NCBI GenBank assembly: GCA_041747555.1
Contig: JBGTEY010000013.1
Coordinates: forward strand, 208,814-272,813
Length of the DNA: 64,000 nucleotides
Reading direction: 5' to 3'
Source: Patescibacteria group bacterium
Lineage (GTDB): Bacteria; Patescibacteriota; Microgenomatia; UBA1400; PJMF01
Positions 2,559-57,765 of this stretch are shown in pieces (positions within the stretch are counted from its first letter, which is position 1; each line of letters starts with the position of its first letter). The position numbers and the translations under genes are program-made. The notes beneath the pieces were generated by a model. That model saw nothing but the letters and a program-made list of their open reading frames with translations. It did no database searches and was not told where the DNA came from.

Positions 2559-2635
2559 TGGTGGGTCCGCCGGGACTCGAACCCGGGACGCACAGCTTAA
2601 AAGGCTGTCGCTCTAACCGACTGAGCTACGGACCC
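2559..2635 (-). tRNA. tRNA-Lys (anticodon TTT)
   Basis: Reverse complement GGGTCCGTAGCTCAGTCGGTTAGAGCGACAGCCTTTTAAGCTGTGCGTCCCGGGTTCGAGTCCCGGCGGACCCACCA folds as a cloverleaf. Acceptor GGGTCCG pairs with CGGACCC, anticodon loop is CTTTTAA, T-loop is GGTTCGAGTCC, and CCA is encoded. Confidence 0.8.
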
Positions 2636-21616: not shown

Positions 21617-21638
21617 ATACACATGTTATACTGCCTCC

Positions 21639-26463: not shown

Positions 26464-26467
26464 AAAT

Positions 26468-27135: not shown

Positions 27136-27138
27136 TCT

Positions 27139-27976: not shown

Positions 27977-28348
27977 ATGGACAGTCATTTAATGAAAAAT
28001 AAATTTACTGATGTCGACAGTTATATAAAAAATGCTCCCGAATGGGCACAAGAGACGCTTATTGCATTGCGAAAGGCCATAATAGAATCAGCGCCAGAAG
28101 CAATAGAGTCGATCAGTTATCACATGCCCTATTATTCCCAAAACGGGCGATTAGCATATTTTGGAGCATACAAAAATCACTGTAGTTTTCACTGGATTAG
28201 CTCTGAGGATAAGAAGATATTTGCGCAAGAACTTGCCAAGCAAAAAGTAGTTGGTAGCACATTGCAAATCCCACGAGGAGAAAAAGTCCCTTCTGGACTC
28301 ATTAAAAAAATTGTAACACTTCGCCTCAAAAATAATGAAAGAAAATAA
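27977..28348 (+). CDS. DUF1801 (YdhG-like) domain protein
   Basis: VDSYIKNAPEWAQETLIALRKAIIESAPEAIESISYHMPYY resembles the YdhG/DUF1801 N-terminal pattern. 123 aa. Confidence 0.55.
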   Translation: MDSHLMKNKFTDVDSYIKNAPEWAQETLIALRKAIIESAPEAIESISYHMPYYSQNGRLAYFGAYKNHCSFHWISSEDKKIFAQELAKQKVVGSTLQIPRGEKVPSGLIKKIVTLRLKNNERK

Positions 28349-28433
28349 AACAGTTCCTCCAAAGATGAAGAAATACGCCTTCTTCGATGACTAGAAAAAA
28401 GTTAAACTATTTGCAAACTGATACAATATCTGC

Positions 28434-29201
28434 ATGAAGCTCAAGTTCATCACTCTCAACCTATACGAAGGTGGCCTACTTTTTGACAACATTGAGGAAT
28501 TCTTAAAAAAAGAAAATCCCGATTTCATTGCTTTTCAGGAAGTTAATAACGGAACTGACCCCAAACTGCCTAAAAATCTGAGATCAATGCAAGTACTCTC
28601 TGAGCTACTACCCGAATACCATAATTTCTTCGCACCTGAAATTCTCTTGAGGTATCCCGAAGGCAAGATTGATATTGGAAACGCAATATTTTCACGTTTT
28701 CCTATAACTAATGAAGAAACCATTTTTTTAAATGTTCCATACGGGGAATACGATCCTGCTCCTATTGGTGGGGACTTCTCAAAGCATCCCAAAAATATGC
28801 AGTGCTGTGAAGTTGTAGTAGGTAACACATATTTGACTCTTTGCAATTTGCATGGGATTTGGGGATTAGATGGCGCTGATACTGATGACCGATTAAAAAT
28901 GAGCCAACTAATAGTTGATCAAATAAAAGACAAAAAAAACGTTATCCTAGCAGGGGATTTTAACTTGAAACCAAACACTCAAACCATCAAAAATATTGAA
29001 AAATACTTAATCAATGTTTTCAAAGACGAGCTAGAAAACACATTTAATGTGGTTAGAAAAGATTTAGTAAAGTTTCCTGGCTATGCCACAGCTGTCGTAG
29101 ATATGATTTTCACTTCTCATACTTTGAAGATAACGAAACATGCTTGTCCGAACGTGGATGTTTCTGATCACTTACCGCTCGTTATTGAGATTGAAGTTTA
29201 A
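28434..29201 (+). CDS. endonuclease/exonuclease/phosphatase (EEP) family protein
   Basis: N-terminal LKFITLNLYEG..FIAFQEV, then AGDFNLKPNT, then C-terminal SDHLPLVIEIEV. These are EEP catalytic motifs. Confidence 0.7.
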   Translation: MKLKFITLNLYEGGLLFDNIEEFLKKENPDFIAFQEVNNGTDPKLPKNLRSMQVLSELLPEYHNFFAPEILLRYPEGKIDIGNAIFSRFPITNEETIFLNVPYGEYDPAPIGGDFSKHPKNMQCCEVVVGNTYLTLCNLHGIWGLDGADTDDRLKMSQLIVDQIKDKKNVILAGDFNLKPNTQTIKNIEKYLINVFKDELENTFNVVRKDLVKFPGYATAVVDMIFTSHTLKITKHACPNVDVSDHLPLVIEIEV

Positions 29202-29319
29202 AACAAAAATAGCTTTTTTTACTAAGAAAAATGTTTGAGCTGAGCTTCTTCAAATTAAGTACACAATGCTATCGCACTCAAACTATTGACTCACACTCCC
29301 AAACTGCTACCATTTTCAT

Positions 29320-30021
29320 ATGATAGAGGTTGAAACAGAAGAAACACTACGACCACCTGAACATGAAATTGTACACGCCCATGTCTCGGGGGTTTTTCTG
29401 AGCGATACTTTTGAAAAAGTACCATCGCAAGATGCATCTGACGAGGGCCTCACAATTACCGAGGGAGGTGTTCAGGGTGACAGATATCGTGGGCCTGATT
29501 ATTATGTTAAATATGGCGCAAGAATTCCTGGCGCCGCATTGGGATTGCTCGGACTAAATCGAGAATCGGTCAAGGATAAAACAATAACGCCCAATCCACG
29601 CGCTGTGTATTTAATTTCTGGAACTGAAGTTGCTCGATTGCAACATGCCTTAGACAATGTTCGCCAGGGGCAAGATATTAATCCGACGTGGTTTAAAGTA
29701 AATGTAGTGATAGATACCAATGATGGAAGTCCCATTGAGTTGTCTCAGTTACCTCCCGGAACAATTATCAGATTTCCCAAAAATGAAGTTGAACTATTTA
29801 TATGGGGACCGAACGATCCCTGCACTAGGCCAGGAAAAATAATTGAAGCTGCGGGGTGGAATATCAACCCATCACAATTTCCTAAAATGGCGATAGATCA
29901 TTATGGTGCGGTCGCTAGCGTGGTCAAAGGAAATCCAGATATACGAATTTTTAAAGATGACCAAGTTGAAATCATCTATCCAAATGAAGACACCGTTTTC
30001 CCTGAGCTGAGCGCAGGTTGA
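29320..30021 (+). CDS. MOSC-domain-like protein (tentative)
   Basis: GGVQGDRY and NDPCTRPGKI resemble the MOSC beta-barrel and conserved-Cys motifs (YiiM/YcbX-like). Weak by-eye match. Confidence 0.4.
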   Translation: MIEVETEETLRPPEHEIVHAHVSGVFLSDTFEKVPSQDASDEGLTITEGGVQGDRYRGPDYYVKYGARIPGAALGLLGLNRESVKDKTITPNPRAVYLISGTEVARLQHALDNVRQGQDINPTWFKVNVVIDTNDGSPIELSQLPPGTIIRFPKNEVELFIWGPNDPCTRPGKIIEAAGWNINPSQFPKMAIDHYGAVASVVKGNPDIRIFKDDQVEIIYPNEDTVFPELSAG

Positions 30022-30047
30022 TCAGAGAATGGTGAAAACAAGTAAGT

Positions 30048-31064
30048 CTAGTTGAAAACACTATTTTCTAGTACCTTTTTAGTTAACGCATTTCCCTCAA
30101 AAAAAGTTGTGTATGTTTTGAATGAATAATACTGAGCATTTCCCGTATCGACCAATACATACATTTCGCTATATCTTTGATCATTTTTATCAAATGCACC
30201 CCGCTCAAGGTAATATATTTTTTTACCATCGTCCATGATGGCTGTATCGACTGTTTTTTTATAAACCACAGGATGTTCAATTGGAACAAAATACCTCTGT
30301 GCAATATCAAGTAGGTATTGCATAGCCTCTTGATCAGTGCTGACTGAATAATCAGTGTTAAAGTCAATGATAGTAACTCCAATAAACCTATTGTTGTTCA
30401 TGGTTGTTGTGCGGTCAGCCAAATATTCAGAATTGTACGTTCTCAAATAGTAGTTACTTGGTGCTTGATGATCCGCAAGTTCAAAATCAGCAGGATACCT
30501 AAATACAATACCTCTATCAGTGAGGTATTCATCGCTCAAAGATGGATCCCGAATCGAATTTCGCTGAGTGATGCTCAAATCATTTACGGTGAGACCACTT
30601 TCAAGCGCATGAACATTTGCACGTTCTGTTGACCGCGAAGTTCTTTTATTGAAATCGTACGCATACGCTCCACCAAAAACTAAGACGAAATATATTGCAA
30701 GCAGAAGAGACGTTTTGATTAATTGAACGTTTGTTGGTTTGCTTACTATTTTATAAATGAAAAGAGCAAGTAAGTATGCAAGAAGTATATTTATAAATAG
30801 TATTACAGCTATAGTGGGTCCCAGCATGCATAAATCACCCTTACCCTCGCATGAATCAGTAAAAAATAGTGCAGCAATCAGCACGCTTGGAAGCATCATG
30901 ATTTGAGAAGTGACGTAAAAAAGCAGCGGCGAAAAAAGCAAGAAAATGAAGGGATATTTTTTAAGAAAATTCATATGTAATTCCAGTATAGCACTTAGCA
31001 TACATCGCGACTTTATTTGCTTACTGCTCAGAAAAACCACACATATATCTGCAATTTCAACCAC
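30048..31064 (-). CDS. hypothetical membrane protein (about 4 TM helices, C-terminal soluble domain)
   Basis: Hydrophobic helices in the first about 150 residues. The remainder is hydrophilic with no recognised motif. Several in-frame Met codons make the true start uncertain. Confidence 0.3.
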   Translation of the reverse strand: MVEIADICVVFLSSKQIKSRCMLSAILELHMNFLKKYPFIFLLFSPLLFYVTSQIMMLPSVLIAALFFTDSCEGKGDLCMLGPTIAVILFINILLAYLLALFIYKIVSKPTNVQLIKTSLLLAIYFVLVFGGAYAYDFNKRTSRSTERANVHALESGLTVNDLSITQRNSIRDPSLSDEYLTDRGIVFRYPADFELADHQAPSNYYLRTYNSEYLADRTTTMNNNRFIGVTIIDFNTDYSVSTDQEAMQYLLDIAQRYFVPIEHPVVYKKTVDTAIMDDGKKIYYLERGAFDKNDQRYSEMYVLVDTGNAQYYSFKTYTTFFEGNALTKKVLENSVFN

Positions 31065-31170
31065 AATTAATCAAAACTATACCCCACCATCAAAGACTGA
31101 TATAATAAGCATAATTGAAACTACTGATCCAATCATACTGCTCATGAGCCTGAATTCCTAAATACCAACT

Positions 31171-32454
31171 ATGCCCACCCCTGATCTCTATCCAGTTATT
31201 TTTAATGTGATTATTTTACTGACACTGTCTGCTATTTTTTCTGGAGCAGAAACGGCGTTCACTAATCTATCTAGAGCGCGGATGGAGGTCATAAAAGACG
31301 ATGGAAAATTCGCATCAGAAATAATGTATCAGCTGTACAAAAGACTTGATTTATTGATAACACTAACACTGGCATTGAGTAACGGCGTAAATATTTTACT
31401 TGCAACATATTTGACAATTTTTTTCAGCAGCCTTTTTGGCGTTGATTTGGGTGGTACGTTGTCAGCTACGATAGGTACGTTGCTTGTCATAATTTTCGGA
31501 GAAATAATTCCCAAGAAAGTTGCAATTTTATTTCCTGTTGAATTTTCTAGAGCCACTTCTCATCTACTTTCGTTCCTCAATGTCATCCTATATCCCTTGC
31601 TGTATCCGCTGAAGTTGCTCAACCAACTCATGGACGCCATAGCAAAAAAATACGTTGTAATTGACGATGTAGAATTCCGTGAGGTAATGCAGCAAGAAAT
31701 TAAGGCTACATTGGGAATCGGTCACACCCATGGCGCACTGGAGAGTAAAGAGTACCAAATGATGAAAAAGCTACTCCTACTCAATGACAAGGAAGTAAAA
31801 GAAATCATGACTCATCGAAACGACATCTATGCCGTTCCTGCGCACAAGACACTCAGGGAAGTAATTGAAATTTCTTCGCAACTCAATATTTCAAGGCTCC
31901 CGATTTATACGAAAAGCTTGGACAATATCGAGTATATTATTCATGTACCACAACTCAGTCAGTTTTTCTTGGACCCGAGCAATTTAGACAAAAAGATCCT
32001 AGAATTTTGCACTACAAAGGCATTTAAAGTTCCTGAAACCAAAATTCTTGATGATCTGTTCTTTGAGTTTCAAAAAAAACGAGTACATATGGCAATTGTC
32101 TTAAATGAGTTTGGCAGAACGAGCGGTGTCATTACACTAGAAGACATTGTCGAACAAATCTTTGGTGAGATTGAAGATGAAACGGATGAAGTAGAAGTTT
32201 CCGTCGAGGCAATTGATGAATTCAAAGTGAGGGCAGACGGAGATGCCACGATAGAAGAAGTTCAAGATATCTTGAACATCCGGTTTCCTGATGAATTCCC
32301 TCGACACAAAACCATGAGCTGGGTGATTCTGGATATTTTACATAGATTTCCTGATGAAGGGGAGGTCATTACGGTTCCTGGCACAAATATTGATATTGAA
32401 GTCGTCGATAAGGATGGCGAGTATGTGGATAAGGTTTTTGTTGAGGTGAAGTAA
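31171..32454 (+). CDS. CNNM/HlyC-CorC family transporter (DUF21 TM domain + CBS pair + CorC_HlyC)
   Basis: 427 aa. N-terminal 4-TM DUF21 region, a central CBS pair, and C-terminal TLEDIVEQIFGEIEDETDE (CorC/HlyC transporter-associated domain). Confidence 0.8.
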   Translation: MPTPDLYPVIFNVIILLTLSAIFSGAETAFTNLSRARMEVIKDDGKFASEIMYQLYKRLDLLITLTLALSNGVNILLATYLTIFFSSLFGVDLGGTLSATIGTLLVIIFGEIIPKKVAILFPVEFSRATSHLLSFLNVILYPLLYPLKLLNQLMDAIAKKYVVIDDVEFREVMQQEIKATLGIGHTHGALESKEYQMMKKLLLLNDKEVKEIMTHRNDIYAVPAHKTLREVIEISSQLNISRLPIYTKSLDNIEYIIHVPQLSQFFLDPSNLDKKILEFCTTKAFKVPETKILDDLFFEFQKKRVHMAIVLNEFGRTSGVITLEDIVEQIFGEIEDETDEVEVSVEAIDEFKVRADGDATIEEVQDILNIRFPDEFPRHKTMSWVILDILHRFPDEGEVITVPGTNIDIEVVDKDGEYVDKVFVEVK

Positions 32455-39163: not shown

Positions 39164-39724
39164 TTAGGCTCGTGAAATGTATGTTTTTGTTTCTGTGTCG
39201 ATGATGAGTGAGTCGCCTTTTTTGACAAAAAGTGGTGCTTGAACTACCAGCCCTGTTTCAAGCGTTACTTCTTTTCGTGCTTGACCAACGGTATTTCCAG
39301 CAACAGCCTCGATTGCGTCGGTGACCTTGAGCGTTACTTTGGGCGGGAGACTTATGCCGATTGGTGTCTCATCATTAAAGATCACATAGACCTGCACGTC
39401 TGGTGTAAGGAGTTGCAGTGAGTCCTCTGCGAAGCTGACGGGTATTGAAACTTGCTCATATGTCCGCGCGTTCATAAAAACTACTTCTGAACTATCATGA
39501 TAGAGGTACTGGAGTTGTTGATTGGTAACGTCAATTTGTGGGACCGATTCGTTAGATTTATAGGTGAAATCAACAGTGTTGCCAGTTTCAAAATTGCGCA
39601 ATTTTACTCGCATGAATGCAGAGCCTTTGCCCGGACTTATAAAATCCGTTTTGACAACTTGATGTGGCTGCCCCTTGAAAGAGATATACATGTGTTTTCT
39701 GAGTGAACCTGCTTTAATTTCTGG
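39164..39724 (-). CDS. efp: elongation factor P
   Basis: SLRKHMYISFKGQPHQVVKTDFISPGKGSAFMRVKLRNFETG contains the conserved KPGKG loop (the modified-lysine position). Three OB-like domains. Start taken at MPEIKAG. Confidence 0.85.
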   Translation of the reverse strand, partial: PEIKAGSLRKHMYISFKGQPHQVVKTDFISPGKGSAFMRVKLRNFETGNTVDFTYKSNESVPQIDVTNQQLQYLYHDSSEVVFMNARTYEQVSIPVSFAEDSLQLLTPDVQVYVIFNDETPIGISLPPKVTLKVTDAIEAVAGNTVGQARKEVTLETGLVVQAPLFVKKGDSLIIDTETKTYISRA

Positions 39725-39798
39725 CATGATTGGTATTGTAGCACGAAGATAGTTGACCAATTGCTCGGTTCGACGATGTAATTCTAACTAGCAGAACG

Positions 39799-40848
39799 CT
39801 ACTCAAAAAGTTCTGACACAGGAAAGGTCAGTGTCTCATTCACACCAGCAACATCTGCAAAAAGCATTACTAATCGATCAACACCCACGGCAATTCCACC
39901 CGTTGGGTGAAGTCCTGATTTGAGGGCTGCTATAAAGTTTTTATCAAGTGAATACGGTGTTTTTCCAAGCTCTTGTCGCAGCTGCAAGTCAGCAACCATG
40001 CGTGACTTTTGCTCTTCCCAATCAAGTAGTTCACTAAATGCATTTCCTAACTCAAGCCCACCAATATAAAACTCGAACCGCTCTGCATATCTTGGGTCTG
40101 ATGATTTTTTCTTGGCAAGTGCTGCCTGGGAGATTGGATAGTCAAATAGTATAGTTGGCCCATGGACGCCAAGGTGCGGCTCAATCTCATTGAGAAATAT
40201 TTGGTTATACATAGTCTCCCACGTGTCGGAGTCTGAAATTGAATAACCTTTTTTTCGTGCCGCTGCAAGTATTTTTTCTTCTTCGTGCAAAGCATCCTCG
40301 TTTATTCCAGCATATCGAGAAAATGCCTCGGCTACAGAAATTCTATCCCATGGTGGAGCGAGATCGTAGGCTAAACCTTGATACAGTAATTTTTGTCCAC
40401 TTGATGGATGCACCTGATCCAGAATGGAGAGCAACAATTGTTCACAGTCGTGCATGACGTGTGTGTAATCTGCGTTCGTCCGATACCACTCTAAGATGGT
40501 AAATTCAGGGTTATGCATATCGCTTAAGCCTTCGTCATTTCGAAAGCTTTTTGTAATTTGAAAAATATTTCCAAACCCAGCCGCCAGGAGTTGCTTCATC
40601 TGTAGTTCTGGACTGGTGGTGAGAAAGGCAGATGATTGTATTGAATCGCCACACCTCAATCGTGTCTCAAAAACCTCCAAGTATGGTTCTGTTCCAGGAC
40701 TTTTCACCAAAAGAGGAGTCTCAACTTCTCGAAATGACTGCGATTTAAAAAACGTCCGAATACTATCAATAACTTTCTCTCTAGTATCAAAAATATGCAG
40801 TAACTCTGGATGTTCGCGAATTTTTTGCCAGGTAGGAGTTTTTTGCAT
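39799..40848 (-). CDS. epmA: EF-P--(R)-beta-lysine ligase EpmA (PoxA/GenX; LysRS paralog lacking anticodon-binding domain)
   Basis: FREVETPLLVKSPGTEPYLEVFETRLR..SPELQMKQLLAAGFGNIFQITKSFRNDEG..HNPEFTILEWY matches class II LysRS-like motifs as found in EpmA. Adjacent to and co-directional with efp. Start moved to MQKTPTWQ to avoid overlap with the upstream gene. Confidence 0.75.
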   Translation of the reverse strand: MQKTPTWQKIREHPELLHIFDTREKVIDSIRTFFKSQSFREVETPLLVKSPGTEPYLEVFETRLRCGDSIQSSAFLTTSPELQMKQLLAAGFGNIFQITKSFRNDEGLSDMHNPEFTILEWYRTNADYTHVMHDCEQLLLSILDQVHPSSGQKLLYQGLAYDLAPPWDRISVAEAFSRYAGINEDALHEEEKILAAARKKGYSISDSDTWETMYNQIFLNEIEPHLGVHGPTILFDYPISQAALAKKKSSDPRYAERFEFYIGGLELGNAFSELLDWEEQKSRMVADLQLRQELGKTPYSLDKNFIAALKSGLHPTGGIAVGVDRLVMLFADVAGVNETLTFPVSELFE

Positions 40849-40867
40849 GTTTTGACAATCACTCACC

Positions 40868-41548
40868 TCACCGTGACAGATTTTTATTATATTGTTCTTC
40901 AATCGCTTGCCAATCATTGTCACTAATTAAAATATAGCGAGCCCACCCGTTACGAAAATCTCCAGGATTGATGTATTTATGAGAATCATCAGTACTTCGA
41001 AAGTGAGAATGGCCACATATTAAAAAGTCATGAGTGGTGAGCTCGTTGGCGAGTGCAACAAGCTTTGTATGTAGTCTTTTTCGATATTTTGAATCGAATT
41101 TACGTGCAAGAATGCCCAATTTATTCTCCTTTTCTTTAATTTTATGGAGTTTTTGATAATGTTTTCCGAATTTGCCTGTGAATCGTGGAAATAAATCATC
41201 AATTTCTGGCACTTCTAGATGCCCGTGCATCACCAGCGCTTGGTTTTCGCCGATAGAAAGTGTATGTTTGAAGCCCTGTACGTCAGAAAAAAGTGATGCT
41301 CGCTCATCCACAAACACTGGCTTGTCATGATTTCCATATAAATAGACCGCATTTTTTTCTTTAAGTAAAGGAAATAATTGCTTCCATGGGGATGAAATAA
41401 ACTCGTCAAACGATGTGAGATATGCATCCCAAAAATCTCCGTTAATTATCACCCGATCAACGTCAGAAATAACTGATGCAAGGGCATTAAAATGTGCCTC
41501 ATCAAATTCATGAGAAAGGTGAGTATCAGAAAAAATAAGTGTCTTCAC
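40868..41548 (-). CDS. metallophosphoesterase (calcineurin-like) family protein
   Basis: LIFSDTHL, INGDFWD and YLYGNHD are metallophosphoesterase motifs I-III. 226 aa. Confidence 0.7.
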   Translation of the reverse strand: MKTLIFSDTHLSHEFDEAHFNALASVISDVDRVIINGDFWDAYLTSFDEFISSPWKQLFPLLKEKNAVYLYGNHDKPVFVDERASLFSDVQGFKHTLSIGENQALVMHGHLEVPEIDDLFPRFTGKFGKHYQKLHKIKEKENKLGILARKFDSKYRKRLHTKLVALANELTTHDFLICGHSHFRSTDDSHKYINPGDFRNGWARYILISDNDWQAIEEQYNKNLSR

Positions 41549-41592: not shown

Positions 41593-42273
41593 TTGAAGAT
41601 TAAGCCTAACTTATATACCATACTGTTTGGTATGAACGTTCTAAAAACAATAACCGCCAGATACATGAACAAGAATAAGGACTATGACAAGTCTTATTAT
41701 GTGAACAATCATATCAATAGAATTAATTCAGTGTACGGTTTTATTATCAAAATGTACTATGACTATACTGCCTGGTACGCAATGGCTAGTCCGGCCCAAC
41801 TGAAAAAAGGCGATACTGTTTTGGATATTGGTTGTGGAGTAGGGATTTTGGTCGAACAATTCAAAAATAGAGGGTATCAAGTGACTGGAGTAGACGTCAA
41901 CGAGGAAGCGATAGAAAATTCGATTGCGCCGAGTGACTGCCTTCTGGTTGAATCAACTGCTAATCTTTCATACCCCGATGATTATTTTGACCTTGTAGTA
42001 AGTAGGGAGGTACTTGAGCATATACCTGAAGAAAAAATTGATGCGTGTATTAAGGAATGGCGTCGAGTTTCAAAAGGCAAGATGATTCACATCATCGCGG
42101 TAAAGGAGCGAGGCAAAAGCGCAACTGATGATCCTGCACATATAAACGTTCAAACAGAACAATGGTGGATGAACAAGTTTAGAAGACATGGATTTGATGT
42201 CATAAAACAACCAAAAAAATATTTTTTCTCTCCATTTGGGAGTGAGGGTTATTTCATGTGTATCGAAAAATGA
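41593..42273 (+). CDS. class I SAM-dependent methyltransferase
   Basis: Motif I VLDIGCGVGILVEQF, acidic loop VTGVDVNEEA, motif post-I. 226 aa. Confidence 0.7.
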   Translation: MKIKPNLYTILFGMNVLKTITARYMNKNKDYDKSYYVNNHINRINSVYGFIIKMYYDYTAWYAMASPAQLKKGDTVLDIGCGVGILVEQFKNRGYQVTGVDVNEEAIENSIAPSDCLLVESTANLSYPDDYFDLVVSREVLEHIPEEKIDACIKEWRRVSKGKMIHIIAVKERGKSATDDPAHINVQTEQWWMNKFRRHGFDVIKQPKKYFFSPFGSEGYFMCIEK

Positions 42274-42346
42274 GCGGGAAACGGGATTCGAACCCGCGAC
42301 CTTCTCCTTGGAAGGGAGACGCTCTAGCCAGCTGAGCTATTCCCGC
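42273..42346 (-). tRNA. tRNA-Gly (anticodon TCC)
   Basis: Reverse complement GCGGGAATAGCTCAGCTGGCTAGAGCGTCTCCCTTCCAAGGAGAAGGTCGCGGGTTCGAATCCCGTTTCCCGC. Anticodon loop CTTCCAA. Confidence 0.8.
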
Positions 42347-42490
42347 GATGTCAGGTATTGTACTGCGTTGTCAGGGTGATGTAAACAATGGCACGAAGCA
42401 ACTATGTGATGCTATGAAATCACTATCAAATAACACAGTACAGGATGAAGCGGAGGTGGTATAATCTTGCTATTGTCTCGGCGATTTCAA

Positions 42491-42574
42491 GCCTCGGTGG
42501 CGGAATTGGTATACGCGACAGACTTAAAATCTGTTGGCTTCACAGCCTTGTGGGTTCGAGTCCCACCCGAGGCA
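42491..42574 (+). tRNA. tRNA-Leu (anticodon TAA), long variable arm
   Basis: GCCTCGGTGGCGGAATTGGTATACGCGACAGACTTAAAATCTGTTGGCTTCACAGCCTTGTGGGTTCGAGTCCCACCCGAGGCA. Anticodon loop CTTAAAA. Variable arm about 14 nt. Confidence 0.8.
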
Positions 42575-42645
42575 CACGCATTTGCGGGCATCGTGGAAAT
42601 AGCGTGGAAACAAATTGAACACATTTATACGTCTGGATTTTAATG

Positions 42646-42663
42646 TATAATTTCCACGTGGAA
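42646..42663 (+). promoter_or_regulatory. tRNA-Pro promoter -10 (TGTATAAT) immediately followed by perfect 12-bp palindrome TTCCACGTGGAA (candidate operator at the transcription start)
   Basis: TATAAT preceded by TG (extended -10 like). The palindrome at about 42652-42663 overlaps the predicted +1. Half-sites CGTGGAAA also occur twice at 42592-42618, and TTCACGTGGAA occurs twice in the serS leader. Confidence 0.3.
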
Positions 42664-42671
42664 TGTAATTA

Positions 42672-42745
42672 CGGGGAGTAGCTCAGATGGCTAGAGTGCA
42701 CGCTTTGGGAGCGTGAGGTCGCAGGTTCGAGTCCTGTCTCCCCGA
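42672..42745 (+). tRNA. tRNA-Pro (anticodon TGG)
   Basis: CGGGGAGTAGCTCAGATGGCTAGAGTGCACGCTTTGGGAGCGTGAGGTCGCAGGTTCGAGTCCTGTCTCCCCGA. Anticodon loop TTTGGGA. Confidence 0.8.
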
Positions 42746-42874
42746 CAGTCAAAAACATCTGAATAATGTCTTGCAAACCACACTAAAACTGCCTGCTTGG
42801 ATAAGATCTCAATTAATTTCGAGATGAAAAACAGAAGTCAATTAAGCTACATAGTTCCATTAAGTAACAATAGA

Positions 42875-44698: not shown

Positions 44699-45655
44699 AT
44701 GACAAGAACGCATTTTTCAGTAGTAGGCCTCGGCGGCACTTTTGACCATTTTCACAAAGGACATGAGGATTTTATTCGATTTGCTGCCAATCTTGGTGAT
44801 TCATTAATCATCGGAGTCACTGATGATCTCTTGCCGCTAGGCAAACCACTCGCCGACCTGCTCCAACCACATTGGGTACGTATTGCTGCAGTGAGAAAGT
44901 TCTGCGATCGAGAAAATATCACTGCAACGTGTGTTATCTTGCATGATGCATTTGGCCCCACCATTGAACCTTCAAGAATTGCAGCGCTTGCGGTTACTAC
45001 AGATACTGCTTCTGGTGCAGATGCCATTAATGTAATTCGAGAAAAGATGAGAATGCCAACGTTGCCCGTATATATTCAGAATCTCACTCTTGATGAAAGC
45101 GGCAAACCAATTACATCTCAACGCATCCGAGCAGGGGAGATTAACAGGTTGGGAACGGTGTACGCTGAAATTTTCACCAGTGATATTACACTATCGAGTC
45201 CACAAAGAGATTTTTTCTCAAAGCCACAAGGAGAAATTGTGGAACAACCATCAATATCGCCAATTACTTGTGTAGTAGGGGATGTTTGTCTATCAACATT
45301 TAGAGAAAACGAGTGGAATTATGACCTTGGAGTTTTTGATCACAAAACACAGCGCGTTGAAAATATAGTTGGCGATCTTGACACAATACAAGCTGACGTA
45401 AAAATTACAAACCATGCTGGAAGCATTTCGGCAGATCTCATTAAGGCACTTCAATCGTGGCACAAAAAACAGTATCAGCACCTTCAAATTGAGGGTGAAG
45501 AGGACTTAGTTACAGTAGCCCTTGCGCTCACACTACCCCTTGAATCGCATATTTATTACGGCCAACCAGATAAGGGAATGATTGAACTCGTAGTCACAGA
45601 AGAGATTAAAGACGCTTTTTATGAAATCCTAATCGATCAAGGAGACACAGAGTAA
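44699..45655 (+). CDS. bifunctional archaeal-type phosphopantetheine adenylyltransferase (cytidylyltransferase-like) fused to DUF359 (archaeal GTP-dependent dephospho-CoA kinase-like) domain
   Basis: N-terminus VVGLGGTFDHFHKGHEDFIRFAANLGDSLIIGVTDD is the (T/H)xGH nucleotidyltransferase motif in the archaeal/eukaryotic PPAT arrangement. C-terminal half ITCVVGDVCLSTF..GVFDHKTQRVEN resembles the DUF359 pattern (GDVV .. D.KT.R). Family assignment is by recalled motifs. Confidence 0.5.
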   Translation: MTRTHFSVVGLGGTFDHFHKGHEDFIRFAANLGDSLIIGVTDDLLPLGKPLADLLQPHWVRIAAVRKFCDRENITATCVILHDAFGPTIEPSRIAALAVTTDTASGADAINVIREKMRMPTLPVYIQNLTLDESGKPITSQRIRAGEINRLGTVYAEIFTSDITLSSPQRDFFSKPQGEIVEQPSISPITCVVGDVCLSTFRENEWNYDLGVFDHKTQRVENIVGDLDTIQADVKITNHAGSISADLIKALQSWHKKQYQHLQIEGEEDLVTVALALTLPLESHIYYGQPDKGMIELVVTEEIKDAFYEILIDQGDTE

Positions 45656-48799: not shown

Positions 48800-50653
48800 T
48801 TACTGTGAAATTCTCATCACCTGATACATTCCACGGTCAGAAAAACCTTTTTTTCTATAGTAAGGTCGTGTACCAACCGCAGAAATAACTGCCAACTCAG
48901 AAAATCCTTCACTTGAGGATAGTTCCGTTGCTCGGGCAATCAACTGCGTTCCATATCCTTGATGCTGAGACGCCGAACTTTTTTCTTTCCCAATTTCCAC
49001 AACGGTTCCATAAACATGGATCTCTCTAATTACGGCTGCTTTCTTTAAATCTTCCATAAACGATTCTTTAGTTGGCAAGCTCAAGCGCAAAAACGCCAAT
49101 AGTTTCTCTTCTCCTGTTGAGGAAGGTGCAACGAACTGCAAAAAAACCTCAGTGCTCGTTGATGTCTGGTATCGAATCTCATCCAATCTGACTTGAGTCT
49201 CGTCCACCACCTCATTTCGCACTTCACGCGCTCTGATATCCCTAATTACTCCACCTGATTTTTTGATCTGCTCTGTAACTATCTGGCGAAAGTTAGTCAA
49301 GGTATTTCCAACCACAATATCAGGTGAAGGTATGTCTCTAATCACCCGCGTAAGTCTGCAGTACTCTGGTGTGAAAAGCATGGAATGTACAAGAACTTCA
49401 GCAAGTTCAGTTTTTGTGTACGGTTTCCACTTACCTTGTTTGTAGTACTGCATTAATTCTGCACTTTGAATTAATGAACAGGGGTATATTTTTAGCTCAT
49501 CAGGTCTAAAATCAGGATCGGTGAATAAAAGCTCAAAATCCTTCTTGTCCGCTTCCACACTCGATCCGTGCAAATTTGCCATCCAGTGCGCATGAATTTT
49601 AAACCCTGCCTGACGAAGTAACCCAATCGCATGCCTTGATGCCGCAACGTCATGCCCGCGATTATTTTTTATTAATACAGAATCCTGCAGGCTCTGCAAA
49701 CCTATCTGAGTCTTTGTGCAACCAAGGCGTCGAATTCGTTTAACCTCAGCCATAGAAATATTATCTGGGCGTGTCTCGATCACCAGTCCAACGCTTCGAC
49801 ACGCTGCTGTTTCATTTCTGAGCTGTTCATACTCCAGCTCCTCCCAAGTCGCGCTCTGATACGCATCAAACCCACCCTTTTTCTCTGGAGCCACATACAT
49901 TTTTGAAACAACTTGATTATAGGTCTCACTCAGGTGTTCACCATCAATTTCTTTTCCTGCAGTTACTGATTTATTATGCAAAGGATCTGAAGTTGGAGCA
50001 TGCTCTTTTTTTTCTAAAAGTGATCGCTGCATCGACTCATAGTGGTCAAGCACTGCTTGCCGGCCATCCACCGTTCCAAAGTCATTGAGTGCGCGAAAGC
50101 ATTCTTTTATAAACCAAATTTGATATTTTTCAGGATAATATGACCATGTTCCGCCCAAAATAATTAGTTCAGTTTTTTCCACAATGTGACCAATATTCTC
50201 GAGCGCTTGGAGTCGATTGTAGGTCTGCAAGTACGGATCAAACCAATTTCTTTCTGCCCGTTGGGCACCCGGCTCATCAGATAAATAGCTTTTGGGCATC
50301 CGCACATCATTGGGACAAAAAATGCATTTTCCAGGACAAGGGAATGGCTTAGTAAGCACGGTCACTGGCGAAACTCCAGACATTGTACGAACAGGCTTCA
50401 TCTTGAGCTTGGCAATCATGGCACGGTCAAATTTTTTCAGTCCATGATCTCCCGCCAAATGCTTATAAGCAAAAATAAGCTGGTCTTTGGCAAACACACC
50501 ACCTTCAGGCTTGGCAAATTTTTTAGCCATTTTCTGATAGACTTTGGTGCTCAAATTGTCTGCTTTTTCTATAGCTTTCAAAAAGGGAACCAATTGCTCA
50601 AGATAGCGAGTATAATCAAAGGACTGCATAGAATCAGATATTATACGGGACAA
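48800..50653 (-). CDS. Elp3-like protein: radical SAM domain + C-terminal GNAT acetyltransferase domain (tRNA wobble-uridine modification enzyme family)
   Basis: Radical-SAM cluster motif CPGKCIFCPN (C-x3-C-x2-C, as CPG+C+FCP in Elp3). A large about 380-aa radical-SAM/Elp3 core. C-terminal HQGYGTQLIARATELS..GTRPYYRKKGF GNAT motif A. 617 aa. Confidence 0.75.
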   Translation of the reverse strand: MSRIISDSMQSFDYTRYLEQLVPFLKAIEKADNLSTKVYQKMAKKFAKPEGGVFAKDQLIFAYKHLAGDHGLKKFDRAMIAKLKMKPVRTMSGVSPVTVLTKPFPCPGKCIFCPNDVRMPKSYLSDEPGAQRAERNWFDPYLQTYNRLQALENIGHIVEKTELIILGGTWSYYPEKYQIWFIKECFRALNDFGTVDGRQAVLDHYESMQRSLLEKKEHAPTSDPLHNKSVTAGKEIDGEHLSETYNQVVSKMYVAPEKKGGFDAYQSATWEELEYEQLRNETAACRSVGLVIETRPDNISMAEVKRIRRLGCTKTQIGLQSLQDSVLIKNNRGHDVAASRHAIGLLRQAGFKIHAHWMANLHGSSVEADKKDFELLFTDPDFRPDELKIYPCSLIQSAELMQYYKQGKWKPYTKTELAEVLVHSMLFTPEYCRLTRVIRDIPSPDIVVGNTLTNFRQIVTEQIKKSGGVIRDIRAREVRNEVVDETQVRLDEIRYQTSTSTEVFLQFVAPSSTGEEKLLAFLRLSLPTKESFMEDLKKAAVIREIHVYGTVVEIGKEKSSASQHQGYGTQLIARATELSSSEGFSELAVISAVGTRPYYRKKGFSDRGMYQVMRISQ

Positions 50654-51402
50654 TGCAAAAAAGCACGATCGCCAGGCTAAATCAGCTCAATCATGATTTT
50701 TACAATCAAACTGCTTCGTACTTTGCCCGGAGTCGCGAGTTTTATTGGCAGGGGTGGTTACGGCTAGAACCATATTTCAGGAGACATGAAAACCTCTCTG
50801 TTTTAGACGTTGGCTGTGGAAGCGGCCGATTCGCCGAGTTTCTCTATGATGCATTTCCAAAAGCTCAGATCGAGTATCACGGCATCGACCAAAATGCCGA
50901 ACTCCTCAAAATAGCCACCGAAAAACTCAAGCCACTCCAAGGATTGCACGGTACGGTTACTCAAATTGATCTGGTTTCTCAACTCATTGATGAAAAACCA
51001 CTGTTACCTCAAGGCCAATACGACATAATCGTACTGATGGGCGTTTTGCACCACATGCCCTCAGAAAAATTACGTAGATCTCTCATAGAAAGTGTCATTC
51101 CACGCCTTGCACCGCAAGGATTTTTATTCATGAGTTTTTGGCAACCTCACCGATTTAGCCGATATACATCAAAACTGATTTCACCAGAATCGTTGCAGAT
51201 AAATCCCAACGAACTTGAACCTGGCGATTGTTTTTTGCCCTGGGACAGGGGAGAGCATGCAGTTCGCTACGTACATAGCTCAAGTGACGCTGAGATCACA
51301 ACTCTTACCAAGGACCTCAACCTAACACTCAAAGCAGAGTTCAGGGCAGACGGTAGAAGCCAGCGAGAAAATCAATATATTTTGCTCCAAAACAAGGTCT
51401 GA
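50653..51402 (+). CDS. class I SAM-dependent methyltransferase, Trm9/ALKBH8-MTase-like
   Basis: Motif I VLDVGCGSGRFAEFL. VLMGVLHHMPSEKLRRSLIESVIPRLAPQGFLFMSFW parallels the Trm9 signature (IHHFAT..R.....I.R.L.PGG..LIYVW). Divergently adjacent to the Elp3-like gene. Confidence 0.5.
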   Translation: MQKSTIARLNQLNHDFYNQTASYFARSREFYWQGWLRLEPYFRRHENLSVLDVGCGSGRFAEFLYDAFPKAQIEYHGIDQNAELLKIATEKLKPLQGLHGTVTQIDLVSQLIDEKPLLPQGQYDIIVLMGVLHHMPSEKLRRSLIESVIPRLAPQGFLFMSFWQPHRFSRYTSKLISPESLQINPNELEPGDCFLPWDRGEHAVRYVHSSSDAEITTLTKDLNLTLKAEFRADGRSQRENQYILLQNKV

Positions 51403-53184: not shown

Positions 53185-53256
53185 TGCCCGATCGTCTAAT
53201 GGCAGGACAGCGGCCTTTGAAGCCGTCAATCTTGGTTCGAATCCAAGTCGGGCATC
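53185..53256 (+). tRNA. tRNA-Gln (anticodon TTG)
   Basis: TGCCCGATCGTCTAATGGCAGGACAGCGGCCTTTGAAGCCGTCAATCTTGGTTCGAATCCAAGTCGGGCA. Anticodon stem GCGGC/GCCGT, loop CTTTGAA, U1:A72 pair as in bacterial tRNA-Gln. Ends are approximate (plus or minus 2). Confidence 0.7.
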
Positions 53257-57460: not shown

Positions 57461-57525
57461 CTATCAATAGCACTGAATAAATTGTGTGTGAGGTCATTTA
57501 GGATAAAATTTGTTACACTTCTAGT

Positions 57526-57765
57526 ATGGCTGAACAACTTATCGTGAACGCAACACTAACTTGTCCAACGTGCAATACCGAACAACCCGTGGTGATGCCT
57601 GTAGATGGCTTCCAGCATTTTTATAAGTGTGTAAATTGTGAAGATGAGTTGACACCACTAGAAGAAAAAGATTGTGTTTTTTGCTCGTATGCGGACTCGC
57701 CGTGCCCCATGAAACAGCAGGGGATTACACCTGCAACAGAGTCAACAACACCTACTGCACTGTGA
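57526..57765 (+). CDS. hypothetical small Cys-rich (zinc-ribbon-like) protein
   Basis: 79 aa containing CPTC..CVNC..CVFC..C. Confidence 0.3.
   Translation: MAEQLIVNATLTCPTCNTEQPVVMPVDGFQHFYKCVNCEDELTPLEEKDCVFCSYADSPCPMKQQGITPATESTTPTAL

What the first reader, a model, noticed from the sequence alone, without database searches (positions are those of the whole stretch)
48800..51402. Divergent Elp3-like radical-SAM/GNAT enzyme plus Trm9-like methyltransferase: a eukaryote/archaea-style wobble-uridine modification module
The 617-aa minus-strand protein has the Elp3 radical-SAM cluster motif CPGKCIFCP followed by a C-terminal GNAT domain. In archaea and eukaryotes Elp3 installs the cm5 side chain on U34 of tRNAs. 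Elp3 homologs are rare in bacteria. A class-I methyltransferase is transcribed head-to-head from it (shared about 0-nt divergent junction at 50653). Its motif block VLHHMPSEKLRRSLIESVIPRLAPQGFLFMSFW resembles the Trm9/ALKBH8 methyltransferase, which converts cm5U to mcm5U. A physically paired Elp3 + Trm9-like couple would be a minimal two-enzyme pathway for mcm5U-type wobble modification in a bacterium that otherwise lacks any MnmE/MnmG-type gene in this window. It could also reflect host-derived or archaeal horizontal transfer.
Basis: partly seen in the sequence, partly recalled or inferred. Interest (0 to 1): 0.7.

Follow-up and report, generated by a model that had tools for sequence, protein, structure and literature searches.

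The report
Bacterial Elp3 paired with Trm9-like methyltransferase
A candidate-phyla-radiation bacterium carries, back to back, a genuine Elp3 tRNA-modifying enzyme and a methyltransferase that keeps the substrate pocket of Trm9. The same pair recurs across several bacterial phyla, so some bacteria probably make the "eukaryote/archaea-type" mcm5U wobble modification, although nobody has measured it.

Summary

**Elp3.** The minus-strand ORF is a bona fide Elp3. It scores 470 bits on TIGR01211 (cutoff 350), and its 11 best PDB fold matches are all Elp3. It is not rare or aberrant: thousands of about 600-aa homologues exist, mostly in Patescibacteria.

**Methyltransferase.** Pfam and NCBIfam see only a generic class-I fold. 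A family profile, however, puts Trm9 at the top of the PDB, and comparison with fungal Trm9 gives 99.5% probability (E 1e-22) over nearly the full length. Seven of the eight residues shown by mutagenesis to be essential in yeast Trm9 are invariant in 52 family members. The eighth, Tyr243, is Cys or Val.

**Pairing.** The divergent arrangement is conserved:
- 15 of 20 species-representative genomes with the methyltransferase have Elp3 next door, across five phylum-level groups.
- 46 of 68 informative Elp3 contigs have the methyltransferase next door.
- None of about 50 generic methyltransferase loci does.

A conserved TATAAT lies 5–12 nt before the Elp3 start codon.

**Limits.** Fold searches do not single out Trm9. 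I found no Trm112 partner. MnmE/MnmG status and recent horizontal transfer could not be supported. No chemistry was measured. IMG already auto-labels one family member TRM9. This is a new member of a known pathway in an unexpected domain and can be tested directly.

The parts
48800..50629 (-). Elp3 coding sequence. It is 609 aa from the ATG at 50629; the mechanical ORF extends to a TTG at 50653, giving 617 aa.
   Evidence: ORF. TIGR01211 ELP3 470.6 bits against a cutoff of 350, covering model positions 49-521 of 522. PDB phmmer hits: MinElp3 4.7e-95, DmcElp3 2.3e-86, human and yeast Elp3 about 1e-80. AF2 model pLDDT 78; the top 11 fold hits are all Elp3, TM 0.80-0.88. The start codon is chosen by analogy with L001/L003 gene calls and the conserved spacer.
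50402..50629 (-). Elp3 N-terminal extension, about 76 aa, lysine-rich and predicted as four helices
   Evidence: Absent from the aligned part of archaeal and Dehalococcoides Elp3. K+R 15 against D+E 8. Helices H6-22, H28-37, H48-58 and H69-76, pLDDT about 75-92. A basic N-terminus drives tRNA binding in archaeal Elp3 (PMC6367351); that role here is inferred.
50312..50338 (-). Radical-SAM iron-sulfur cluster motif CPGKCIFCP (Cys98, Cys102, Cys105 in Met9 numbering)
   Evidence: Read from the translation. Aligned to the cluster loop of MinElp3. All three Cys are invariant in 12 homologues.
49841..50080 (-). Insertion of about 80 aa in the radical-SAM domain (residues 184-263), lacking in archaeal and Dehalococcoides Elp3
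   Evidence: Seen as a gap between the two aligned stretches for every solved Elp3. Predicted helical, pLDDT 62-86. Many invariant residues among close CPR homologues, but no detectable similarity outside close relatives. Function unknown.
48803..49222 (-). Elp3 C-terminal GNAT/KAT domain, including the acetyl-CoA motif QHQGYG at 48950..48967
   Evidence: Pfam GNAT models match only below threshold (18 bits). The domain is covered by TIGR01211 and aligns to the MinElp3 KAT domain. Q555, H556, G558 and G560 are invariant. GCN5-type folds appear as partial fold hits.
50630..50652 (.). 23-nt divergent spacer AGAATCAGATATTATACGGGACA. ATTATA at 50640-50645 reads TATAAT on the Elp3 strand, 10 nt before the Elp3 ATG. 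TATTAT on the plus strand lies 8 nt before the methyltransferase ATG.
   Evidence: Sequence. In 30 of 37 non-redundant spacers from paired loci, a TATAAT (at most 1 mismatch) lies 5-12 nt before the Elp3 ATG; 1000 shuffles gave mean 2.5 and maximum 8. A box on the methyltransferase side occurs in 10 of 37, which is weaker. Leaderless transcription is inferred, not shown. The generic promoter scan found nothing here because there is no room for a -35 element.
50653..51402 (+). Trm9-family class-I SAM methyltransferase, 249 aa
   Evidence: ORF. Only generic methyltransferase models match in Pfam and NCBIfam. The family profile ranks Trm9 (5cm2) first in the PDB, E 1.4e-12. hhalign against 14 named fungal Trm9: 99.5%, E 9.5e-23, 199 columns. 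AF2 model pLDDT 93.4. The family holds 1951 50%-identity clusters at E<=1e-30. IMG names member P0143 'TRM9'.
50689..50757 (+). N-terminal substrate helix motif N-x-x-F-Y-x-x-x-A-x-x-F-x-x-S-R-x-x-x-W-x-G-W (Tyr17, Arg28, Trp32)
   Evidence: Aligns with Trm9 VH-x-VY-x-x-IA-x-HFS-x-TR-x-x-x-W. Arg28 corresponds to ScTrm9 Arg29, which is essential and proposed to position the cm5U carboxylate. Tyr17 corresponds to ScTrm9 Tyr18 (PMC4678810). Tyr17 and Arg28 are invariant in 52 of 52 members. Generic methyltransferases do not align to this part of the Trm9 HMM.
50800..50826 (+). SAM-binding motif I, VLDVGCGSG. Asp79 (50887-50889) is the acidic residue after strand 2.
   Evidence: Asp79 corresponds to ScTrm9 Asp72, the SAM-binding residue whose D72A mutant is inactive. 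Invariant in 52 of 52.
51049..51054 (+). His133-His134 pair
   Evidence: Aligns with ScTrm9 His115/His116. The H116A mutant is inactive. His134 is present in 52 of 52 members and His133 in 51 of 52.
51139..51141 (+). Trp163
   Evidence: Aligns with ScTrm9 Trp145, which is essential and proposed to stack on U34. Invariant in 52 of 52.
51217..51276 (+). C-terminal beta-hairpin lid, E-x-G-D-x-x-L-P-W ... R-Y-V-H (Trp197, Arg205, Tyr206, Val207, His208)
   Evidence: Aligns with Trm9 QDV-x-VPW ... RYYH. Trp197 corresponds to ScTrp168 and Arg205 to ScArg241; both are essential and invariant in 52 of 52. Position 207 corresponds to ScTyr243, which is essential in yeast but here is Cys in 45, Val in 5, and Thr or Ser in 1 each. 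Strands E192-199 and E201-208 in the model.
51370..51372 (+). Asn240, in the motif N-x-Y
   Evidence: Aligns with ScTrm9 Asn271, which is essential and proposed to read O2/N3 of U34. Invariant in 52 of 52.
2559..2635 (-). tRNA-Lys(UUU), a candidate substrate
   Evidence: The window also holds these U34 tRNAs: Arg-UCU 25912-25986, Gly-UCC 42272-42346(-), Leu-UAA 42491-42575, Pro-UGG 42672-42746 and Gln-UUG 53185-53256. Substrate status is inferred from the tRNA sets modified by Elongator and MnmEG in other organisms; it was not tested.

Best explanation
The two genes form a bacterial version of the Elp3-Trm9 wobble-uridine pathway.

Elp3 is a stand-alone radical-SAM/acetyltransferase with a basic N-terminal tRNA-binding extension. 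It uses SAM and acetyl-CoA to attach a carboxymethyl group to C5 of U34, giving cm5U, in tRNAs that read split codon boxes.

The divergently transcribed 249-aa methyltransferase belongs to a bacterial branch of the Trm9 family. It uses SAM to methyl-esterify that carboxylate, giving mcm5U, possibly thiolated further elsewhere. Arg28 and His134 would position the carboxylate. Asn240 and His133 would read the uracil. Trp163 and Trp197 would stack on bases.

The genes share a very short bidirectional control region, with a conserved -10 box placed for leaderless or near-leaderless Elp3 mRNA.

Shown here: family membership of Elp3, homology of the methyltransferase to Trm9 including its mapped active site, and the conserved gene pairing.

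Inferred: the chemistry, the tRNA substrates, independence from Trm112, and leaderless expression.
For: Elp3 identity: TIGR01211 470 bits against a cutoff of 350. PDB Elp3 hits E 1e-95 to 1e-75. The top 11 fold hits are all Elp3. Cluster cysteines and the acetyl-CoA motif are invariant.

Methyltransferase and Trm9: the family profile ranks Trm9 first of 177,635 PDB sequences, and Trm9 is the only one of the five alignments printed that runs into the C-terminal hairpin. hhalign against named fungal Trm9 gives 99.5%, E 9.5e-23, over A1 columns 15-247 and A2 columns 19-231, and this is reproduced with 52 members. The equivalents of ScTrm9 Y18, R29, D72, H116, W145, W168, R241 and N271 are invariant in 52 of 52 members; the experimental roles of these residues are in PMC4678810. 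Foldseek ranks Trm9 second. IMG labels a family member TRM9.

Coupling: Elp3 is divergently adjacent in L006 and L007, whose other neighbours are unrelated. It is adjacent in 15 of 20 species-representative loci from Myxococcota, Chloroflexota, Proteobacteria, Saccharibacteria and other Patescibacteria, and in 0 of about 50 generic methyltransferase loci. Conversely, 46 of 68 long-form Elp3 contigs carry the methyltransferase divergently upstream, and 34 of 36 when Elp3 is at least 56% identical to the window's. A second bacterial methyltransferase group, closer to fungal Trm9, is also Elp3-adjacent (L024, L026, L030, L032).

Precedent: Elp3 and Trm9 genes cluster in Sulfolobus, and HvoTrm9-Trm112 makes mcm5U in Haloferax (PMC2584109, PMC6144793).

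Control region: a conserved TATAAT lies 5-12 nt before the Elp3 ATG in 30 of 37 spacers.
Against: - No modified nucleoside or enzyme activity was measured.
- One residue essential in yeast, Tyr243, is Cys or Val throughout the family, so the pocket is not identical.
- A fungal Trm9 HMM scores the window protein at only 42.5 bits. That is within the range of a few generic methyltransferases (L042 45 bits, L057 38 bits).
- Pfam and NCBIfam give no specific assignment.
- Eukaryotic and archaeal Trm9 needs Trm112. No Trm112-like gene was found beside the pair or in the window.
- About a quarter to a third of family members or Elp3 genes are not adjacent (L010, L011, L025).
- In the archaeon Haloferax, cm5U itself was not detected, so the pathway's intermediates are not fully understood even there.
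Confidence: 0.7

Rival explanations
1. The methyltransferase is Trm9-derived and works with Elp3, but it makes a different product. It could act on another Elp3-pathway intermediate or nucleotide context, or methylate something other than the cm5U carboxylate. The bacterial end product would then not be mcm5U.
For: The Tyr243 equivalent is Cys or Val in all 52 members. The family has its own invariant residues without a Trm9 counterpart, such as E189, D192 and D233-G234. Similarity to fungal Trm9 is modest, 23-25% identity in hhalign. In Haloferax the trm9 deletion did not accumulate cm5U, which shows the pathway has unknown branches.
Against: All residues proposed to hold the carboxylate and read the uracil (R29, H115/H116, R241 and N271 equivalents) are invariant. 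A second bacterial subgroup, much closer to canonical Trm9, occupies the same position beside Elp3, which suggests the two are isofunctional.
Confidence: 0.15
2. The methyltransferase is an ordinary small-molecule or protein methyltransferase. Its position next to Elp3 reflects shared regulation or inherited gene order, not a shared pathway.
Against: Adjacency recurs across five phylum-level groups with otherwise unrelated neighbours, and it is absent from about 50 generic methyltransferase loci. Alignment to Trm9 extends into the N-terminal helix and C-terminal hairpin, which carry Trm9's experimentally mapped substrate residues.
Confidence: 0.07
3. The pair is a recent horizontal acquisition from an archaeon or eukaryotic host, and not a resident bacterial system. 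This concerns origin, not mechanism.
For: The best solved-structure match of Elp3 is archaeal. The pathway was thought typical of eukaryotes and archaea.
Against: GC content at 48-52 kb (0.43) matches the flanks. The neighbours are housekeeping genes: RecQ, RarA, a MutY-like gene, the ATP synthase operon, aminoacyl-tRNA synthetases. The whole block is syntenic in a relative whose proteins are only 54-69% identical. Thousands of CPR homologues share the same 600-aa architecture. Scores against archaeal, Dehalococcoides and eukaryotic Elp3 are all similar, 259-323 bits. Ancient inter-domain transfer is not excluded, because no phylogeny was built.
Confidence: 0.05

Closest known systems
Trm9 (yeast) / ALKBH8 methyltransferase domain (human), the tRNA (carboxymethyluridine34-5-O)-methyltransferase
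   Same: Class-I SAM methyltransferase of about the same core size. It shares the N-terminal Y..A..F..[ST]R...W helix, the HH pair, the Trp after strand 4, the ..PW...RY.H beta-hairpin and the C-terminal N-x-aromatic motif. Seven of the eight residues essential in yeast are invariant here. It is functionally linked to Elp3.
   Different: Bacterial. About 23-25% identity to fungal Trm9. The Tyr243 equivalent is Cys or Val. There is no evidence of a Trm112 partner, and no fused AlkB or RRM domains. It has its own invariant residues (E189, D192, D233-G234). Activity is untested.
Archaeal Trm9 (Haloferax HVO_1032 with Trm112) and the Sulfolobus Elp3-Trm9 gene cluster
   Same: A prokaryotic, Elongator-free setting in which stand-alone Elp3 and a Trm9 homologue are predicted, and in Haloferax shown, to give mcm5U. 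Physical clustering of the two genes was noted in Sulfolobus.
   Different: The archaeal enzyme is active as a complex with Trm112. I did not obtain archaeal sequences, so the relationship of the bacterial family to archaeal Trm9 was not measured. The conserved divergent orientation with a 20-50-nt spacer is described here for bacteria only.
Stand-alone Elp3 of Dehalococcoides mccartyi (5L7J) and Methanocaldococcus infernus (6IAZ)
   Same: The same radical-SAM + Radical_SAM_C + KAT architecture and fold, with no other Elongator subunits.
   Different: The window protein is about 150 aa longer than DmcElp3. It has a structured, lysine-rich N-terminal extension, which DmcElp3 lacks and MinElp3 has in a flexible form, plus an insertion of about 80 aa in the radical-SAM domain. 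Its cluster motif is CX3CX2C, against CX4CX2C in MinElp3.
MnmE/MnmG(/MnmC), the canonical bacterial xm5U34 pathway
   Same: It targets the same position (C5 of U34) in the same class of tRNAs and ends with a SAM-dependent methylation.
   Different: The enzymes are unrelated (GTPase + flavoprotein), the chemistry differs (glycine or ammonium plus methylene-THF) and so does the product (cmnm5U or mnm5U). Whether genomes carrying the Elp3-Trm9-like pair lack MnmEG could not be tested here.
CmoM (SmtA), the bacterial cmo5U to mcmo5U methyltransferase
   Same: A bacterial class-I methyltransferase that methyl-esterifies a carboxylate on a U34 side chain, so it is analogous chemistry. This rests on my own knowledge of the family.

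Membership tests
Elp3 (TIGR01211) | Whole-protein score above the curated family cutoff, covering the radical-SAM, Radical_SAM_C and KAT regions in one match | tested here: met
   470.6 bits against a cutoff of 350, model positions 49-521 of 522. Radical_SAM and Radical_SAM_C are both above the Pfam cutoffs.
Elp3 (TIGR01211) | Three-cysteine [4Fe-4S] radical-SAM motif | tested here: met
   CPGKCIFCP aligns with the cluster loop of MinElp3. The cysteines are invariant in 12 homologues. The spacing is CX3CX2C.
Elp3 (TIGR01211) | C-terminal GNAT/KAT domain with an acetyl-CoA-binding Q/R-x-x-G-x-G/A motif | tested here: met
   QHQGYG aligns with the MinElp3 KAT domain and is invariant. GCN5-type partial fold hits are present. 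Stand-alone Pfam GNAT models are below threshold at 18 bits.
Elp3 (TIGR01211) | Elp3 three-dimensional domain arrangement | tested here: met
   AF2 model (pLDDT 78). The top 11 PDB hits are Elp3 from human, yeast, mouse, archaea and Dehalococcoides, TM 0.80-0.88, E<=6e-28. The next hit is HemN at 2e-4.
Elp3 (TIGR01211) | tRNA-dependent acetyl-CoA hydrolysis and cm5U34 formation | not testable with these tools
   This needs biochemistry or LC-MS.
Trm9 family (cm5U34 O-methyltransferase) | Class-I SAM methyltransferase core with motif I and the acidic SAM-binding residue (ScTrm9 D72) | tested here: met
   Methyltransf_11/12/25 are above their cutoffs. VLDVGCG and Asp79 are invariant.
Trm9 family (cm5U34 O-methyltransferase) | Closest characterised relative is Trm9, with alignment spanning the N-terminal helix and C-terminal hairpin | tested here: met
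   The profile search ranks 5cm2 (Trm9) first, 50.6 bits against 43.1 for the next hit, aligned over profile positions 32-222. hhalign 99.5%, E 9.5e-23, 199 columns.
Trm9 family (cm5U34 O-methyltransferase) | Substrate-pocket residues shown essential in ScTrm9: R29, H116, W145, W168, R241 and N271, plus H115 and Y18 | tested here: met
   The equivalents R28, H134, W163, W197, R205, N240 and Y17 are invariant in 52 of 52 members, and H133 in 51 of 52. Experimental roles are from PMC4678810.
Trm9 family (cm5U34 O-methyltransferase) | Tyr243 of ScTrm9, the third residue of RYYH, whose Y243A mutant retains about 10% activity | tested here: not met
   Window Val207. Across the family it is Cys in 45, Val in 5, and Thr or Ser in 1 each, of 52.
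Trm9 family (cm5U34 O-methyltransferase) | Clean separation from other methyltransferases by a Trm9-specific model or by fold | tested here: inconclusive
Trm9 family (cm5U34 O-methyltransferase) | Obligate Trm112 partner, as in eukaryotes and Haloferax | tested here: inconclusive
   No Trm112-like ORF lies between or next to the pair in 11 loci, and none was found in the 64-kb window. The rest of the genome could not be searched.
Trm9 family (cm5U34 O-methyltransferase) | Functional association with Elp3, the producer of the cm5U substrate | tested here: met
   15 of 20 species-representative loci and 46 of 68 Elp3 contigs show divergent adjacency, against 0 of about 50 generic methyltransferase loci.
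Trm9 family (cm5U34 O-methyltransferase) | SAM-dependent methylation of cm5U34 to mcm5U34 | not testable with these tools
   This needs an enzyme assay or nucleoside mass spectrometry.

The most novel reading that the evidence does not exclude
Many bacteria carry mcm5U-type wobble uridines. These include much of the Patescibacteria/CPR and lineages of Chloroflexota, Myxococcota and Proteobacteria. The modification is made by a self-sufficient two-gene cassette: stand-alone long-form Elp3 plus a Trm112-independent Trm9 branch with Cys in place of Tyr243. In reduced CPR genomes this cassette replaces the MnmE/MnmG pathway. If so, the textbook split (mcm5U for eukaryotes and archaea, (c)mnm5U for bacteria) would not hold.
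Probability: 0.35. Interest if true: 0.7.

Novelty: new member of a known kind. Interest (0 to 1): 0.55.

Why it matters
The papers I could read treat mcm5U as a eukaryotic and archaeal signature and bacterial Elp3 as a curiosity of Dehalococcoides. One review states that no homologues of the Trm112-dependent methyltransferases, Trm9 among them, are detectable in bacteria.

The evidence here points the other way. A Trm9-family enzyme with the cm5U pocket intact is widespread in bacteria, with about 2000 50%-identity clusters, and is genomically tied to Elp3.

This gives a simple, testable prediction of a bacterial mcm5U pathway. It offers a compact two-gene system for studying Elp3 and Trm9 chemistry without the Elongator or Trm112 scaffolds. 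It allows better annotation of a large family now labelled 'class I SAM-dependent methyltransferase'. It also bears on how ultra-small CPR genomes keep wobble decoding accurate.

Tried and rejected
- **Curated libraries.** Pfam and NCBIfam returned only generic methyltransferase models for the small protein.
- **Single-sequence PDB search.** It placed Trm9 sixth, among UbiG-like hits. Only the family profile resolved it.
- **Word-index homologue search.** It found just 12 relatives, a large underestimate. The exhaustive profile search found 1951 clusters at E<=1e-30.
- **AFDB search.** The library was unavailable.
- **Trm112.** I found no candidate between or beside the pair in 11 loci. This does not exclude a copy elsewhere in the genome.
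- **MnmE/MnmG absence.** This could not be tested.
- **Recent horizontal transfer.** Considered and rejected on composition, context and synteny. No phylogeny was built.
- **Two key Elp3 papers** (PMC5018218, PMC4479141) are not held in the library.
- **Generic promoter scan.** It found nothing at the junction. The conserved -10 box emerged only from comparing spacers.
- **Elp3 insertion as a conserved docking element.** The insertion is conserved only among close relatives, so no such claim is made.

Full report
**Observation.** The window has a 617-aa minus-strand ORF at 48800..50653 that contains CPGKCIFCP. It also has a 249-aa plus-strand ORF at 50653..51402 that contains the quoted VLHHMPSEKL... 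block. The genes are head to head. The apparent zero-length junction comes from using the first possible start, a TTG. In close relatives the Elp3 gene is called from the equivalent of Met9, 23 nt from the methyltransferase ATG (L001, L003). The window has an ATG at 50629 that gives the same 23-nt spacer.

**The large protein is a real Elp3, and a common one.**
- It scores 470.6 bits on NCBIfam TIGR01211 (cutoff 350) over model positions 49-521 of 522. It passes Pfam Radical_SAM and Radical_SAM_C.
- Its best matches among solved structures are Methanocaldococcus infernus Elp3 (4.7e-95), Dehalococcoides Elp3 (2.3e-86) and human, mouse and yeast Elp3 (about 1e-80).
- An AlphaFold model (pLDDT 78) has Elp3 as its 11 best PDB fold matches (TM 0.80-0.88). 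The next hit is HemN at E 2e-4.
- The three cluster cysteines and the QHQGYG acetyl-CoA motif are invariant among homologues.
- Relative to solved Elp3 proteins it has a lysine-rich N-terminal extension of about 76 aa, predicted as four helices. It also has a helical insertion of about 80 aa in the radical-SAM domain. The insertion is conserved only among close relatives.
- A homologue search returned 7999 proteins at E<=1e-10. The top 120 are all about 600 aa and 60-82% identical. Where named, they come from Patescibacteria, Microgenomates or Pacebacteria, and PGAP and IMG already annotate them as Elp3.

So 'rare in bacteria' and 'divergent' are not accurate for this lineage. Published statements do still describe bacterial Elp3 as rare or confined to Dehalococcoides (PMC6367351, PMC7663514). 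A 2026 paper says 'numerous bacteria'.

**The small protein: curated libraries are silent, family-level analysis is not.** Pfam and NCBIfam give only generic class-I methyltransferase models. The single sequence hits Trm9 (5cm2) no better than UbiG.
- An alignment of 12 relatives (A1) shows invariant residues well outside the SAM-binding core. As a profile, it ranks Yarrowia Trm9 first among 177,635 PDB sequences (E 1.4e-12). Of the five alignments printed, only Trm9's continues into the C-terminal hairpin.
- I retrieved authentic, named fungal Trm9 proteins and aligned 14 of them (A2). Profile-profile comparison gives 99.5% probability, E 9.5e-23, over 199 columns spanning almost the whole of both families. 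A 52-member alignment reproduces this.
- The Trm9-Trm112 structure paper reports that R29A, D72A, H116A, W145A, W168A, R241A, Y243A and N271A abolish or strongly reduce ScTrm9 function. It proposes roles for them in positioning the cm5U carboxylate and reading the uracil (PMC4678810).
- In the hhalign alignment these map to window R28, D79, H134, W163, W197, R205, V207 and N240. Seven of the eight, plus the Y18 equivalent, are invariant in 52 of 52 diverse family members; the H115 equivalent is conserved in 51 of 52. The Y243 position is instead Cys (45), Val (5), and Thr or Ser (1 each).
- The family is large: 1951 clusters at E<=1e-30 in the exhaustive search.
- IMG's pipeline already names one member 'tRNA (uracil-5-)-methyltransferase TRM9', while NCBI calls a close relative 'class I SAM-dependent methyltransferase'.

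**What does not discriminate.**
- A fungal Trm9 HMM searched against all 4691 ORFs of the fetched loci scores the window protein at 42.5 bits. That is within the range of a few generic methyltransferases.
- The useful distinction is coverage. Family members align from HMM position about 14-23, the N-terminal substrate helix, and carry the N- and C-terminal motifs. Generic methyltransferases align only over positions about 45-155 and lack those motifs.
- The same search revealed a second bacterial group much closer to fungal Trm9, at 65-120 bits (L024, L026, L030-L034). Several of these also sit beside Elp3.

**Gene pairing.**
- Contigs encoding relatives at 77% and 54% identity keep the whole neighbourhood.
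- Relatives at 39% and 34% identity sit in quite different neighbourhoods yet still have Elp3 divergently upstream (L006, L007). Some relatives do not (L010, L011).
- A scan of one genome per species returned 20 loci with full-length or near-full-length family matches. Fifteen of them have Elp3 on the opposite strand within 3.6 kb upstream. They come from Myxococcota, Chloroflexota (Aggregatilineales, Caldilineaceae, Anaerolineaceae and others), Proteobacteria, Saccharibacteria and other Patescibacteria.
- None of the roughly 50 loci that matched only through the generic methyltransferase core has Elp3 nearby.
- Conversely, among 80 metagenomic contigs carrying long-form Elp3, 68 have at least 800 nt upstream. 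Of these, 46 carry the methyltransferase divergently adjacent: 34 of 36 when Elp3 is at least 56% identical to the window's, and 12 of 32 below that.
- Several apparent gaps are simply the divergent N-terminal half of Elp3. True intervening genes are membrane proteins, a kinase and the like, with no Trm112.

**The junction.**
- In 30 of 37 non-redundant spacers, a TATAAT (at most 1 mismatch) lies 5-12 nt upstream of the Elp3 ATG, whatever the spacer length. In 1000 shuffles the mean was 2.5 and the maximum 8.
- In the window it lies at 50640-50645, 10 nt from the ATG. On the other strand, TATTAT lies 8 nt before the methyltransferase ATG. The box on the methyltransferase side is less general, at 10 of 37.
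- I infer a compact bidirectional promoter with leaderless or near-leaderless transcripts. This was not shown.

**Context and origin.**
- The window is ordinary core chromosome. It holds transketolase, Fpg, the F-type ATP synthase operon, GreA, several aminoacyl-tRNA synthetases, SecA, PRPP synthetase, pyruvate kinase, enolase, EF-P, a MutY-like gene, RarA, RecQ, a MazG-like gene, VKOR and VIT1.
- GC content around the pair (0.43) matches the flanks.
- Nothing supports recent transfer from a host or an archaeon. Ancient inter-domain transfer remains open because I built no phylogeny.
- The window contains six tRNA genes with U34 (Lys-UUU, Arg-UCU, Gly-UCC, Leu-UAA, Pro-UGG, Gln-UUG). These are plausible substrates by analogy only.
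- The absence of MnmE/MnmG from 64 kb is uninformative, and I could not examine the rest of the genome.

**Mechanism proposed.** Elp3 makes cm5U34 from acetyl-CoA by radical-SAM chemistry. This is established for archaeal Elp3 and Elongator (reviewed in PMC7663514; PMC13315578). The adjacent Trm9-family enzyme then methyl-esterifies it to mcm5U34, as shown for yeast Trm9-Trm112 and Haloferax Trm9-Trm112. Elp3 family membership, homology to Trm9 with its active site, and the conserved coupling are shown here. The products, substrates, Trm112 independence and transcript structure are inferred. I put 0.7 on this explanation. The main rival (0.15) is a Trm9-derived enzyme with altered specificity, suggested by the Cys or Val at the Tyr243 position.

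**Comparison with what is known, and novelty.**
- Both enzymes belong to known families and the pathway is known in eukaryotes and archaea. An Elp3-Trm9 gene cluster was noted in Sulfolobus in 2008. Automated pipelines already label Elp3, and in IMG at least one family member as TRM9.
- In the searchable literature I found no description of a bacterial Elp3-Trm9 module. No paper combines Elp3 with 'Candidate Phyla Radiation'.
- A 2017 review states that no homologues of Trm112-dependent methyltransferases are detectable in bacteria. A 2020 review says there is no direct evidence of xcm5U in bacteria.
- I rate this a new member of a known kind: the known pathway in an unexpected domain. It has a distinct methyltransferase subfamily and a conserved divergent architecture.
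- It is of moderate interest and easy to test by co-expression and nucleoside mass spectrometry.

Noticed in passing
L031:9851-10555, L033:4838-5557, L030:9977-10699, L032:9986-10720, L026:9875-10726, L024:9803-10714: A second group of bacterial methyltransferases is much closer to fungal Trm9 than the window's family, at 65-120 bits on a fungal Trm9 HMM. They come from Gammaproteobacteria, Patescibacteria, Saccharibacteria and Chloroflexota MAGs. Four of them are Elp3-adjacent. The two best-scoring ones (L031, L033) have no Elp3 in the fetched flank.
   Followed up: partly
window 44699-45655 (+): A single 318-aa protein fuses a cytidylyltransferase-like (PPAT-type) domain to DUF359. From memory, DUF359 is the archaeal-type dephospho-CoA kinase family. 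The fusion is conserved in the relative L003.
   Followed up: no
window 11719-13827 (+): The class-II lysyl/aspartyl-type tRNA synthetase is 702 aa and carries a C-terminal HD-domain match, which is an unusual fusion.
   Followed up: no
window 39164-40923 (-): EF-P (39164-39760) lies next to a 374-aa truncated class-II LysRS-like protein with no anticodon-binding domain (39799-40923). This looks like an EpmA/PoxA-type EF-P lysylation pair.
   Followed up: no
window 41593-42273 (+): A second, unrelated class-I methyltransferase (Methyltransf_11, 226 aa) sits directly beside the tRNA-Gly/Leu/Pro cluster at 42272-42746. It lacks the Trm9-type motifs.
   Followed up: partly
window 26000-32000, and ORFs 2785-4797, 21588-22514, 30048-31064: GC content dips to 0.37-0.39 at 26-32 kb, against 0.42-0.45 elsewhere. 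Several sizeable ORFs have no Pfam match, including one of 670 aa at 2785-4797.
   Followed up: no
L016:9511-9927, L020:9544-9945, L021:8527-8859; L011:3118-3525: In Chloroflexota loci, a small membrane protein of 110-138 aa with a shared 'R-I-x-V-G-S-A-F-K/R-V-G ... F-Y-N' pattern lies between Elp3 and the methyltransferase. A DUF3566 protein occupies the same position next to the methyltransferase in a contig that lacks Elp3.
   Followed up: no
window 49841-50080 (-) and 50402-50629 (-): The CPR long-form Elp3 carries a structured lysine-rich N-terminal four-helix extension and a helical insertion of about 80 aa. No solved Elp3 has the insertion, which is well conserved only among close relatives.
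   Followed up: partly
window 57502-57762 (+): A small cysteine-rich ORF (CPTC ... CVNC ... CVFC ... CP) turned up in the zinc-knuckle pattern search. It does not resemble Trm112.
   Followed up: no
PDB 3sm3 (Methanosarcina mazei Q8PUK2): An uncharacterised archaeal structural-genomics methyltransferase is the best Foldseek match to the window methyltransferase, ahead of Trm9. It also appears in the sequence searches. It might be an archaeal relative of this family.
   Followed up: no
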